The notes beneath the pieces were generated by a model that had not been told where the DNA came from, did not search any database, and saw nothing but the letters and a program-made list of their open reading frames with translations. The position numbers and the translations under genes are program-made. Of a stretch of 64,000 nt of DNA, positions 26,204 to 29,200 are shown in pieces. Numbering within the stretch: the first letter of the stretch is position 1; each line of letters opens with the position of its first letter. Source of the DNA: Alligator mississippiensis. Lineage: Eukaryota. Where the stretch lies: positions 240,717 through 304,716 of the forward strand of contig NC_081830.1 in assembly GCF_030867095.1 (NCBI RefSeq). Reading direction: 5' to 3'.

Positions 26204-29200
26204 GGGATGTCAGCCCACTCCCAGCATGCCCTGCTCTGCACCGCCTCCCAGCATGCCTCGCTCCACCCATGCCACTGGGTCACGTTGGCTCCCATGAGGT
26301 CTTGCTGCCCTGGTGAGAGCTCCCAGCATGCTTTGCTCCCCACACCAGGGCTCCCATCACACCTATCTGACAACACCCTGCTCCCAGCATGTTGTGCAGC
26401 TGTTGGGGCCCAACTCCCACAATGCCTTGCTGCCCAGAAAGCATTCCCAGCAGCCTGCCACTACAGGGGTGCCTGCTCTTCCCAGCATGTTTTGCTCCTG
26501 TAGGCTTGGCCCCGCCTAACAGGCCTAGCTTCTCCAAGGGACACCAACTCCCATGATGCCTTGCTCCTCTGGTAACACCAACCCCTACACCGTGCTACCC
26601 AGTGCCCCCCAGCTCCCAGCATGCCTCGCTGCCCACACCCAACTCTCATCATGCCTTGCTGCCTGTAGCCCACCAGCCCCCTTCATGCCTTCCTCCCCAA
26701 TGTCCCCAGCTCCCAGCATGCTTTGCTCCCCCCCCCCCAGGCAAGAATCTGGGCCTCTGAGCCTCTGTTGCGGAGGGAGGGGGGCAGGAAGGCAGATGAC
26801 CTTTGGTCTCCAGGAGTTGGGGGCAGTCAGGTGACCAAGGACATGGGTGTGGGGGGGTCACCCTACCATGATGTGACCTCTGACCTCCAGCCTCCCCTAT
26901 GCACCCTCTGACCCCACACCACCTCCTCCCTAGGGCAGGGGCATGGCCCCAAGCAGGGGTCACCCACACATCGAGGGCTGCCCCCCGATCCCTCCTCACC
27001 TGCTGCTGCTCCAGTTGACTGTGGCCACAGCACCCACAACCTCTCCCCTCCCTGCAGGCTGGCCCAGGGGCAACCCCATTCCCCTCCAGCAATGGGGGGA
27101 GCTACGCTGACCTTTGGCCTGGGGAGGGAACGTGGGGGAAGGGGGCGAGGTGCGTTTCGGGACCCGGCCCTGCCCCAATAACGAGCATGGAGGAGACCGA
27201 CTGGAGAGCTGCAACCACCTTTAATCGGCTTCAAATCAAACGGAGCAAAGCAGGGTGGAGGGGGGCACGCACAGGGTGAGGGGCAAATAAATAGGGGGAG
27301 GGGGGAGGAGGTGCGGGTGGCTCAGACCCGGGGTCTTGGGCTGGTTCGGAAAACAAATGGGTGCGTGGGGGCCCGGCCGCCTGGGCCCCCTGCACATGTC
27401 CTGGACCCTCACGGCTTTATGGGTGTGCATGCATCCTGGACACATGAGGCCTGAGTGCACCCGCTGGCTTTCCCCCGGTCTTGCTAAGAGTGGGCTGGAG
27501 GCAGCTGGGGCACGCAGGCAGGGCCGGGGGCGCCCACACTCCCAGCACCCTGCACCGGGGACCCCTTCCAAGCCACATGAGACTGTAGTGATGGGGATAG
27601 GAGACGCACGGGGGCAGCACCGAGCTGGGGGGGGCATAAATAACCCCATGGGAAACCAACACTGGGGATGGAACCAAACTGAGCAGCTGCCCCGAACCAG
27701 GGGAGGAACGAAGGAACCAGGGGCAGGGGTGGGAAAGAGCCCAGCTCCGCGCCAAGAACCAGCTGCTGCTCATAGTGAAGAGCTTGTACACGTGTGTGTT
27801 CACACCGGGCAGAGGCCTTGCACTTCCCGTTGTGGTACATGACCTGGACACCTGAGGGACTGTGTGTGTGTGTGGCACACCTGCACATATTGCACACTTA
27901 ATGGTATGTGTACACACAACTGACATGCTCAGCCTTGACAGATGGGTCTAGAAACCTTTGATATACAAGTCACTTTTGCAGAGAAGTTCCTCATGTACCA
28001 AAGTGTTACGTGCACACCTCCCCCCGAGTTACATCTGTATCAACTGTGTGCGTGTGTACACAGACACAACTGCAATATAGAAGTAATTATCTGCACATAA
28101 AAGAGACGTGTGTATCAGTCCCAGGCACGTGCATCATCAGTTATGTATGTGTGTGTGCAAGTTACTCATGAGTGTGTAGAAACCTGTCATGTTCAAGCAC
28201 CTCCTCTGCATGTAAGTTACTTGTGTATCAGTTTCTTACACACATTAGCTGCTACACATGTGATTACTGATACATGTACACTAAAAATCAAGATACAAGT
28301 AACTTTTATCTGTGCAGTGCTTCTGTATCAGCTTTACTATATAGACATATATTTAGTGTGTACACACGTATGTAGGTATGTATGTATGCATGCATGTGTG
28401 TGTACACATACAGACAAGGTTCTTTGGGGGAATCTGAACACTTTTATTCGACCAACTCAAATAGGTGAAAAAACTCTTTGAGTTGGTATAATAAAAGATA
28501 CCAGATTCCCCCGAAGACCCTTTTTCTTCCGTCCCTAGACCAACACAACTACAACCTACATCCCTTGCACTCACACATACCACACACACACAAGTTTATG
28601 TATGTACAGGATGTTTATCAAGTCCTTGTGCAACTTTAAACTCTAACAACTCTGGATGTACACCAGATCGAAGCAAACTGGAAATGGCGACTGAAAGCAG
28701 AACTCAGCCCGTTTTAACACAAGCAGCTCAAATTTCTAGACTTCAACAGAGCAGCCATCTTTCATGATGCATCGTTCAATCCAGTTTTCCAGCTTATAGC
28801 AAACATGTTCCAGTTGCTGAGGGACTTCATGAATTGCATGTCATCCTTACCCAATGCATAGATAGCTTCTGCTGCACTAAAAAAGTAAATTCTGCTTTCA
28901 GTCACCGTTTCCAGTTTGCTTCACTCCTATGTACATCCAAAATTGTTAAAGTTGCACAAGGACTTGATAAACAGTGTGTGAGTGTGTAAATGCAAACTCT
29001 TGGCTGAGATGATACTTTTTATTGGACCAAGACATTGCAAAAAAGTGATCTTTCTTTGCAATATGATTTAGTTGACCTAATAAAAGGTATCATCTCTGAA
29101 CCAAGAGCTTGAGAATTTTGCATTTCTTTTTGTCTCAGACCAACACAGTTACCAGCTACATCCCTGTATAGATATACACACATACATACATACAATGTGT

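What the first reader, a model, noticed from the sequence alone, without database searches (positions are those of the whole stretch)
28440..29200. Composite inverted-repeat element resembling a non-autonomous DNA transposon or hairpin insertion
Two about 85-bp arms in inverted orientation flank a 180-bp core. The whole is bracketed by two about 70%-identical direct copies of a 170-bp unit, each starting with a small stem-loop. This structure is not explained by any gene feature and sits in the AT-rich island inside TAOK2.
Basis: seen in the sequence. Interest (0 to 1): 0.5.

Follow-up and report, generated by a model that had tools for sequence, protein, structure and literature searches.

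The report
Decayed miniature DNA transposon between hairpin repeats
The inverted-repeat structure is real and is best read as a dead, non-coding cut-and-paste transposon copy that landed between two older hairpin-containing repeats in an AT-rich stretch of the TAOK2 gene. That makes it an ordinary relic of mobile DNA, not a new kind of element.

Summary
Arms 28612-28702 and 28890-28973 are 82% complementary and their outer 28 nt are perfect. They enclose a 187-nt core. Two direct units (about 28405-28606 and 28981-29200, roughly 60-70% alike) flank them, and each is dominated by a 107-119-nt hairpin.

The inner part belongs to a dispersed family with terminal inverted repeats. A metagenome contig (L001, AT-rich, eukaryote-like) carries a roughly 1-kb element whose two inverted ends are homologous to the window's ends. 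In the register fixed by the search seed, 14/18 outer and 33/50 inner positions match. Its flanks and interior are unrelated, and the hairpin units are absent from it.

The shared terminus reads TA|CAG.... L001 has TA on both sides, and the end resembles mariner inverted repeats (16/27 with Himar1). A Tc1/mariner-type miniature element is therefore likely but not proven. No transposase remnant was found by any test, and my own by-eye 'mariner C-terminus' reading was rejected.

The 'composite' is a juxtaposition, not one mobile unit. The origin of the flanking units is unresolved: old tandem duplication or two insertions of a hairpin repeat. Genome-wide copy number and a Dfam/Repbase match could not be tested. 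The finding is ordinary and of low interest.

The parts
27900..29999 (.). AT-rich island that hosts everything below. It is an older repetitive tract lying 550-2650 nt downstream of the stop of the long TAOK2 terminal ORF and inside the beta-type intron (32075 to 26191, minus strand).
   Evidence: GC is 0.26-0.47 in 100-bp bins against more than 0.6 outside. Island-specific motifs occur on both sides of the composite with 0 expected by chance.
28405..28606 (+). Flanking direct unit A: TG/GTAT-rich lead-in, long hairpin, conserved tail, CA-rich tract.
   Evidence: MAFFT alignment with unit B; local alignment score 44 against 18 +/- 2.2 for shuffles.
28412..28527 (.). Hairpin A (arms about 53 nt, 80% complementary, 9-nt loop). 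It carries AATAAA on both strands: 28490 on plus and 28448 on minus.
   Evidence: I2; DNA fold -33.9 kcal/mol, z = -8.75; arm identities; hexamers.
28537..28565 (+). Conserved tail motif of unit A (AGACCAACACAACTACAACCTACATCCCT).
   Evidence: 86% identical to 29137-29165 (D10).
28605..28606 (.). TA dinucleotide directly outside the left terminus; candidate target-site duplication, left copy.
   Evidence: Read from the sequence. The same TA|CAG junction occurs at the L001 right end.
28607..28980 (.). Inverted-repeat element: a non-autonomous TIR transposon copy of about 374 bp. The left terminus CAGGATG... is intact. The last 5-7 nt of the right terminus (28974-28980) are overwritten by a (TG)n-like tract.
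   Evidence: Cross-genome homology of the ends reaches out to ATGTACAG (14/18 in fixed register, P = 8e-6). Inner side 33/50, P = 1e-8. Fold z = -11. No Pfam domain in six frames.
28612..28702 (+). Left arm of the inverted repeat. 28612-28639 is the perfect 28-mer.
   Evidence: (I1, I3).
28703..28889 (.). 187-nt core with no detectable coding remnant and no similarity to the L001 interior.
   Evidence: Pfam; exhaustive HMMER search returned only ankyrin-repeat artefacts; PDB sequence search found no mariner; BLAST against L001.
28890..28973 (-). Right arm of the inverted repeat. 28946-28973 is the perfect 28-mer.
28981..29200 (+). Flanking direct unit B: TG-rich lead-in, long hairpin, conserved tail, (ATAC)n.
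28993..29111 (.). Hairpin B (arms about 54-61 nt, 75% complementary). It carries AATAAA on both strands: 29079 on plus and 29023 on minus.
   Evidence: self-complement E = 1e-8; fold -27.9 kcal/mol, z = -6.97.
29137..29165 (+). Conserved tail motif of unit B (AGACCAACACAGTTACCAGCTACATCCCT).
   Evidence: D10.

Best explanation
Window 28607-28980 is a decayed copy of a miniature, non-autonomous cut-and-paste DNA transposon (a MITE), most probably of the Tc1/mariner superfamily.

How such elements work is established knowledge for this class and was not shown here. A transposase encoded elsewhere binds the terminal inverted repeats, excises the element, and reinserts it at a TA dinucleotide, which is duplicated on both sides.

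This copy landed at a TA in a TG/CA-rich spacer between two much older hairpin-containing direct units. These lie within an AT-rich repetitive tract downstream of the long TAOK2 terminal exon. The apparent 'composite' is therefore a nested or adjacent arrangement of unrelated repeats, not a single mobile unit, and it is now inert.

Shown: the structure; the lack of coding capacity; the existence of a homologous element with different interior and flanks in another genome; and the absence of the flanking units from that relative.

Inferred: the superfamily, from the TA|CAG terminus and the resemblance to mariner inverted repeats; the order of events; and the loss of activity.
For: (1) Long inverted arms with perfect 28-nt outer segments and fold z = -11.

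(2) L001 carries ends homologous to the window's in inverted orientation about 1 kb apart. Its own ends pair with each other (64 nt, 77%, E = 1e-9).

(3) Counts made in the register fixed by the search seed, excluding the seed itself, give 14/18 outer positions (P = 8e-6) and 33/50 inner positions (P = 1e-8). The four-end alignment has about 85 conserved columns.

(4) L001's flanks and interior are unrelated to the window, and it lacks units A and B. This is the signature of a mobile family with variable internal deletions.

(5) Termini: the window's left end reads ATG-TA-CAGGATGT and L001's right end reads ATG-TA-CAGTATGT. L001 has TA on both sides. An 8-bp duplication model fits L001 poorly, at 2/8.

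(6) The Himar1 inverted repeat (sequence as printed in PMC2553598 and PMC1635035) matches the window terminus at 16/27 positions. The best register is exactly the one the cross-genome homology marks as the terminus. Only 0.07% of island 27-mers match as well. Hsmar1 gives 14/26 in the same register.

(7) No protein domain was found in any frame of either copy, which is consistent with non-autonomous elements.

(8) The two 28-mers have zero mismatches while units A and B differ by about 35%. The element is therefore younger than the unit pair.
Against: Only one relative was found, and it comes from an unidentified organism. Copy number in the source genome is unknown.

The window's right terminus does not show the expected ...CCTG|TA; it reads GTGTG|TG. 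So the TA duplication is seen on one side only in the window.

L001's left terminus needs a 2-nt deletion to fit the model.

Three of the four ends share ATG outside the TA. This must be put down to target preference or chance, or else the true terminus lies a few bases further out.

An inner register is also formally possible: TA at 28616-17 and at 28968-69, inside the palindrome TGTTTA...TAAACA.

No transposase remnant and no autonomous partner were detected.

The resemblance to mariner inverted repeats is modest, about 3% by chance after correcting for the offsets tried.

The element is not galluhop, the known avian mariner.
Confidence: 0.72

Rival explanations
1. Same kind of object, a non-autonomous TIR transposon, but from a superfamily other than Tc1/mariner, for example hAT with an 8-bp duplication.
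For: CAG-type termini also occur in hAT elements (established knowledge). With the terminus at 28607, the 8 nt outside each end match at 5/8 (TGTATGTA against TGAGTGTG; read). No transposase remnant fixes the superfamily.
Against: The 5/8 match lies in TG-rich low-complexity sequence. The same model gives only 2/8 in L001, whereas TA is present on both sides there. The terminus matches mariner inverted repeats in the correct register.
Confidence: 0.15
2. The inverted repeat is a local rearrangement, an inverted duplication or palindrome formed in place, and not a mobile element.
For: There are no other copies in the 64-kb window or in 75 kb of two birds and a gecko. The right terminus is not clean. 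The surrounding island is rich in palindromes and microsatellites.
Against: A homologous pair of inverted ends with a different interior and unrelated flanks exists in L001. A local rearrangement cannot explain that.
Confidence: 0.05
3. The whole 28405-29200 block is one composite mobile element: terminal direct repeats plus an internal domain, like a TRIM/LTR-type miniature retroelement or a composite transposon.
For: Two direct units bracket the inverted repeat. Each unit begins TG-rich and ends CA-rich, loosely like LTR ends.
Against: The inner element occurs without such units in L001. The units are only about 60-70% alike, while the inner termini are perfect. No primer-binding site or polypurine tract is evident next to the units (read). 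With the inner element removed, the units abut directly, as in a simple tandem pair.
Confidence: 0.04
4. About the flanking units only: they are two separate insertions of a hairpin-bearing interspersed repeat, and not an old local tandem duplication. From memory, they may be related to repeats that sit next to Penelope-like/hammerhead elements in turtles and crocodilians.
For: Arms within each copy pair better (80% and 75%) than equivalent arms match between copies (65% and 63%). Simple decay of one duplicated palindrome does not predict this. A sequence I recalled from memory hits the units preferentially within the window (best E = 0.002). I wrote it down after seeing the units, so this is only a lead.
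Against: No other copy was found in the window, L001, viral contigs or 75 kb of sauropsid DNA. No hammerhead ribozyme or other Rfam family was detected. No printed sequence could be retrieved. The units abut exactly once the inner element is removed, and homology covers the full period, as expected for a tandem duplication. The within-versus-between difference rests on about 50 positions per comparison.
Confidence: 0.4
5. The hairpins are functional RNA or DNA elements, such as microRNA precursors or poly(A)/termination signals for the long TAOK2 isoform, and not junk.
For: The hairpins are very stable. Two of the only three gene-strand AATAAA hexamers downstream of the long-isoform stop lie in hairpins A and B. 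The gecko has a similarly placed AT-rich stretch bearing poly(A) signals.
Against: No Rfam microRNA family reaches its gathering score; the best is 27 bits against 130. The two hairpins are only about 64% alike. There is no sequence conservation with the gecko stretch. The first AATAAA, at 29567, lies upstream of both hairpins on the transcript and would suffice on its own.
Confidence: 0.05

Closest known systems
Tc1/mariner-derived MITEs (such as human MADE1 from Hsmar1, plant Stowaway, and the galluhop MITEs of galliform birds)
   Same: Small size (about 374 bp) and no coding capacity. Terminal inverted repeats with an outer segment of about 28-35 nt. A TA sits next to a CAG... terminus. There is an internal AAGT motif at the position seen in the Himar1 and Hsmar1 inverted repeats (16/27 and 14/26 matches). 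A relative exists with the same ends and a different interior (L001).
   Different: No sequence similarity to galluhop. No recognisable transposase fragment or autonomous partner. The inverted arms extend to about 85-90 nt at 82%, longer than typical mariner inverted repeats. The TA duplication is visible on one side only in the window copy.
hAT-type MITEs
   Same: CAG-type terminus, small size, intronic location.
   Different: The 8-bp duplication is not supported: 5/8 in low-complexity sequence in the window and 2/8 in L001.
TRIM / LTR-like miniature retroelements
   Same: Direct terminal repeats of about 200 bp flank a short internal domain. The units start TG-rich and end CA-rich.
   Different: The internal domain is itself an independent TIR element that is found elsewhere without the repeats. 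There are no primer-binding or polypurine signals, and the repeats are about 35% diverged.
Hammerhead-associated Penelope-like repeats of reptiles (PMC4209133)
   Same: From memory only: a GTTGGTCCAATAAAAGATA...GACCAACACGGCTAC-like motif resembles the right arm and tail of units A and B.
   Different: No hammerhead motif is present (Rfam). The family sequence could not be retrieved, so similarity was not tested against a published sequence. In the units, the motif is part of a long palindrome.

Membership tests
MITE (non-autonomous TIR DNA transposon) | Terminal inverted repeats | tested here: met
   Arms of 91 and 84 nt at 82%, outer 28 nt perfect; fold z = -11.
MITE (non-autonomous TIR DNA transposon) | Small size and no transposase coding capacity | tested here: met
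   About 374 bp. Six-frame Pfam scan found nothing. Exhaustive HMMER and PDB sequence searches found no transposase.
MITE (non-autonomous TIR DNA transposon) | Dispersed copies that share ends but differ in flanks and interior | tested here: met
   One relative, L001, passes fixed-register tests at P = 8e-6 and 1e-8. This is the minimum possible, a single extra copy from another organism.
MITE (non-autonomous TIR DNA transposon) | Multiple copies within the host genome | not testable with these tools
   The source genome is not available. There are no copies in the 64-kb window or in 75 kb of other sauropsid DNA.
Tc1/mariner superfamily | TA target-site duplication | tested here: inconclusive
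   L001 has TA on both sides if its left end has lost 2 nt. The window has TA on the left (28605-06), while the right side reads TG within a (TG)n tract.
Tc1/mariner superfamily | Inverted-repeat sequence related to known family members | tested here: inconclusive
   16/27 with Himar1 and 14/26 with Hsmar1 at the terminus register. Per-27-mer frequency is 0.0007, about 0.03 after correcting for offsets.
Tc1/mariner superfamily | Remnant of, or partner encoding, a DD(E/D) transposase | tested here: not met
   Pfam, the 1.84-billion-protein HMMER scan, the word-indexed search and the PDB search were all negative for both copies.
galluhop (avian mariner; PMC5556988) | Nucleotide similarity to the published consensus | tested here: not met
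   blastn and tblastx against the G. gallus consensus from supplement 3 gave no hit better than E = 0.26.
hAT MITE | 8-bp target-site duplication | tested here: not met
   Window 5/8 in TG-rich sequence; L001 2/8 (read from the junction sequences).
TRIM / LTR-type element | Near-identical terminal direct repeats with primer-binding site and polypurine tract, moving as one unit | tested here: not met
   The units are about 60-70% alike. The inner element occurs without them in L001. No primer-binding or polypurine signal is seen.
Hammerhead/Penelope-associated repeat (flanking units) | Hammerhead ribozyme motif | tested here: not met
   No hammerhead family at E <= 10 in 27000-30500, and none at gathering score in the window.
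Hammerhead/Penelope-associated repeat (flanking units) | Sequence similarity to a curated family consensus | not testable with these tools
   No Dfam/Repbase is available here. No printed sequence was found. Only a remembered sequence was compared.
microRNA precursor (hairpins A and B) | Match to a curated family at its gathering score | tested here: not met
   The best hits are MIR9481 at 27 bits against 130, and mir-365 at 26 bits against 62. There are none at gathering score.

The most novel reading that the evidence does not exclude
The two palindromic units may not be dead repeats. They could be a maintained pair of hairpins, each carrying AATAAA on both strands, that supply alternative polyadenylation or termination signals for the long TAOK2 isoform. 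Their arms would be kept complementary by arm-to-arm correction. On the same reading, the miniature transposon between them belongs to a family shared with a distant, possibly arthropod, host by horizontal transfer.
Probability: 0.06. Interest if true: 0.45.

Novelty: new member of a known kind. Interest (0 to 1): 0.15.

Why it matters
It matters little in itself. It is one more relic of a cut-and-paste transposon in non-coding DNA.

It has two modest uses. First, DNA transposons are scarce in bird-like, GC-rich genomes. A TIR family with a relative in an unrelated AT-rich eukaryote is a candidate for horizontal transfer and is worth a line in a repeat library. Second, the element and the hairpin units sit in what looks like the 3'UTR and poly(A) region of the long TAOK2 isoform, and they contribute two of the three canonical poly(A) hexamers there. 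They could therefore affect isoform 3'-end choice.

Tried and rejected
(1) 'Mariner transposase C-terminus' in the core. I read the minus-strand peptide ...[19 protein letters not shown] as one. The reading was rejected. Pfam found nothing. The exhaustive HMMER scan of 1.84 billion proteins returned only ankyrin-repeat proteins, through many summed weak repeat matches. The PDB sequence search found no Mos1 or SETMAR even at E <= 10.

(2) 'Helix-turn-helix remnant' in L001 (...KETGSGNDKRRSERPRS...). This is not supported.

(3) Galluhop identity. There is no similarity.

(4) Finding other genomic copies through pseudo-ORFs in the protein collection. Nothing was found.

(5) Scans of genome and viral collections with a degenerate terminus. 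The 13 hits are the number expected by chance, and none extends beyond the seed.

(6) Scan for the flanking-unit signature in viral contigs. The single hit was a chance match.

(7) Identifying the organism or an orthologous intron. No ortholog above 69% identity was found, apart from short bird fragments. Exact-sequence look-ups of 11 window ORFs and of the stork, sparrowhawk and tortoise proteins all failed.

(8) Literature searches for the terminus, for the unit motifs and for the JGI contig name. Nothing relevant turned up.

(9) Island as a tandem array. No strong periodicity appears after removing the element.

(10) TRIM or composite-transposon reading. Rejected, as set out under the rival explanations.

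(11) Inner boundary with TA at 28616-17 and 28968-69. Disfavoured, because homology with L001 continues 10 nt further out.
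Full report
**Observation**

- Two inverted arms, 28612-28702 and 28890-28973, are 82% identical over 91 columns (BLAST E = 5.7e-22 in the 64-kb window). Their outer 28 nt are perfectly complementary, and they enclose a 187-nt core.
- The stretch 28607-28980 folds as single-stranded DNA at -83.9 kcal/mol against -38.3 +/- 4.1 for shuffles (z = -11).
- On either side lie two direct units, about 28405-28606 and 28981-29200. Their local alignment scores 44 against 18 +/- 2.2 for shuffles.
- Their tails (AGACCAACAC..CTACATCCCT) are 86% identical (D10). Overall the units are about 60-70% alike.
- Each unit is mostly one long hairpin, not a small stem-loop: A at 28412-28527 (z = -8.75) and B at 28993-29111 (z = -6.97).
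- No other copy of any part occurs in the window.

**Context**

- The host gene is a TAO kinase of TAOK2 type on the minus strand.
- The beta-type intron runs from a GT donor just after QQPKSLK (32075) to an AG acceptor just before [10 protein letters not shown] (26191). A long read-through ORF ends at 30549-30551.
- The ORF's extension is conserved with the gecko up to its stop (40% identity over 465 residues, E = 1e-50). It is therefore a real alternative terminal exon.
- The AT-rich island spans about 27900-29999 (GC 0.26-0.47 against more than 0.6 outside). It lies 550-2650 nt downstream of that stop.
- The island contains its own short motifs on both sides of the composite, in both orientations, with none expected by chance. 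The composite therefore interrupts an older repetitive tract.

**What the inverted-repeat element is**

A scan of metagenome contigs with a 20-mer from the perfect terminus gave one contig, L001 (10.8 kb, 39% GC, with a CA microsatellite, no tRNA or Rfam hit, no long ORFs).

L001 carries sequence homologous to the window's arms twice, in inverted orientation about 1 kb apart (3181-3228 on plus and 4118-4200 on minus; E = 2e-11 for the second). Those two ends pair with each other (64 nt, 77%, E = 1e-9).

L001's two ends are copies of each other, so the second match is not independent of the search seed. I therefore counted ungapped matches outside the seed, in the register the seed fixes:
- 14/18 on the outer side (P = 8e-6);
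- 33/50 on the inner side (P = 1e-8).

The alignment of all four ends has about 85 conserved columns. L001's flanks and interior are unrelated to the window. Shared inverted ends with different interiors, different flanks and different genomes are the signature of a family of TIR transposons. Neither copy has any recognisable protein domain in any frame, so both are non-autonomous.

**Termini and superfamily**

Homology between the window's left end and L001's right end continues outward, past the window's perfect 28-mer: ATG-TA-CAGGATGTTTATC against ATG-TA-CAGTATGTACATA. This places the terminus at CAG (28607), preceded by TA (28605-06).

L001 has TA outside both ends, provided its left end has lost 2 nt. 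In the window, the right terminus has decayed into a (TG)n-like tract (28974-28980), and no right-hand TA is visible.

An 8-bp duplication, as in hAT elements, fits poorly: 5/8 in low-complexity sequence in the window and 2/8 in L001.

The Himar1 and Hsmar1 inverted repeats, taken from printed sources (PMC2553598, PMC1635035, PMC5714172, PMC4036204), match best at exactly this terminus register. The figures are 16/27 and 14/26. Only 0.07% of island 27-mers do as well against Himar1, or about 3% after correcting for the offsets tried.

I conclude that a Tc1/mariner-type MITE is the most likely classification, but it is not proven.

**What failed**

- My first impression that the core encodes a mariner C-terminus (...[19 protein letters not shown]) did not survive. 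Pfam, an exhaustive scan of 1.84 billion proteins (only ankyrin-repeat artefacts) and a PDB sequence search that includes Mos1 and SETMAR all gave no transposase.
- A supposed helix-turn-helix remnant in L001 failed in the same way.
- The element is not galluhop, the known avian mariner.
- Scans of the genome and viral collections gave only chance seeds.
- A pseudo-ORF search for further copies found nothing.
- The organism could not be identified, and no orthologous intron could be fetched.
- About 75 kb of quail-relative, barbet and gecko DNA contains no copy of any part.

**The flanking units**

- They are absent from L001, so they are not part of the transposon family.
- They differ from each other by about 35%, whereas the element's two 28-mers have no mismatch. 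The element is therefore the younger arrival (inference).
- With the element removed, the two units abut directly and homology covers the whole period. This fits an old tandem duplication.
- Against that, the arms within each hairpin pair better (80% and 75%) than the same arms match between copies (65% and 63%). This hints at two insertions of a palindromic repeat, or at arm-to-arm correction. The difference rests on about 50 positions per comparison.
- From memory, the units resemble repeats found beside hammerhead ribozymes in Penelope-like elements of turtles and crocodilians. No hammerhead is present here, and I could not retrieve a published sequence to test the resemblance. It remains a lead.

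**Verdict**

The inverted-repeat part is a dead miniature DNA transposon, probably of Tc1/mariner type. The 'composite' is a juxtaposition with older hairpin repeats, not one element. This is an ordinary relic of mobile DNA: a new member of a known kind, and of low interest.

The one mildly interesting side point concerns poly(A) signals. The island looks like the 3'UTR and poly(A) region of the long TAOK2 isoform. Two of its three gene-strand AATAAA hexamers lie inside the hairpins, and the gecko has a parallel AT-rich stretch bearing poly(A) signals.

Noticed in passing
window 27900-29999 and 30549-32483; L018 3036-8000: The AT-rich island begins about 550 nt downstream of the stop of the long alternative TAOK2 terminal ORF. 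The only three gene-strand AATAAA hexamers between 26300 and 30560 are in the island: 29567, 29023 (in hairpin B) and 28448 (in hairpin A). The gecko has a homologous long extension (40% identity over 465 aa). It is followed about 1 kb later by an AT-rich dip holding its first poly(A) hexamers, though the two AT-rich stretches share no sequence similarity. The island is probably the 3'UTR and poly(A) region of the long isoform.
   Followed up: partly
window 27958-27975, 28214-28231, 29514-29531, 29650-29667; 28087-28103, 29320-29336, 29629-29645: Two short motifs, TTGATATACAAGTCACTT and TTATCTGCACATAAAAG, recur only inside the island, on both sides of the composite and in both orientations, with 0 expected by chance. 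The outermost pairs are roughly mirror-symmetric. The island may be a decayed larger repeat or a foldback-like element.
   Followed up: partly
window 27855-27880 and 29864-29897: The island is bracketed by (TG)n on the left and (AC)17 on the right. Together they form a 20-nt inverted pair, AGGGACTGTGTG... / ...CACACACCCT.
   Followed up: no
window 29042-29251 (-): A sub-threshold Rfam match to snoRNA ZL1 (32 bits against a gathering score of 64, E = 2.8e-5) covers the right half of unit B, its tail and the (ATAC)n tract. It appears to be driven largely by TG-rich sequence. mir-297-type matches at 28347-28416 are likewise microsatellite palindromes.
   Followed up: partly
whole window: GC content is extreme (65-81% over most 1-kb bins). 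The TAOK2 protein has no ortholog above about 69% identity in the protein collection, apart from short bird fragments at 82-88%. This fits a bird-like genome whose GC-rich genes are missing from most assemblies. The organism was not identified.
   Followed up: partly
L001 3642-3771: The L001 relative contains an internal 26-nt perfect palindrome (TTGGTAAAACCTAGGTTTTACCAA) followed by a 42-nt imperfect inverted repeat. The window copy has neither.
   Followed up: no
L001 2253-2579 (-): A 108-aa ORF (...RSWVRIPPGACMFVCCESFVLSG...GPWPALGRSATGKK...) reminds me of peptides from repeats that are common in termite and cockroach genomes. If that is right, L001 is arthropod host DNA and the transposon family spans very distant hosts. 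This rests on memory only and was not tested.
   Followed up: no
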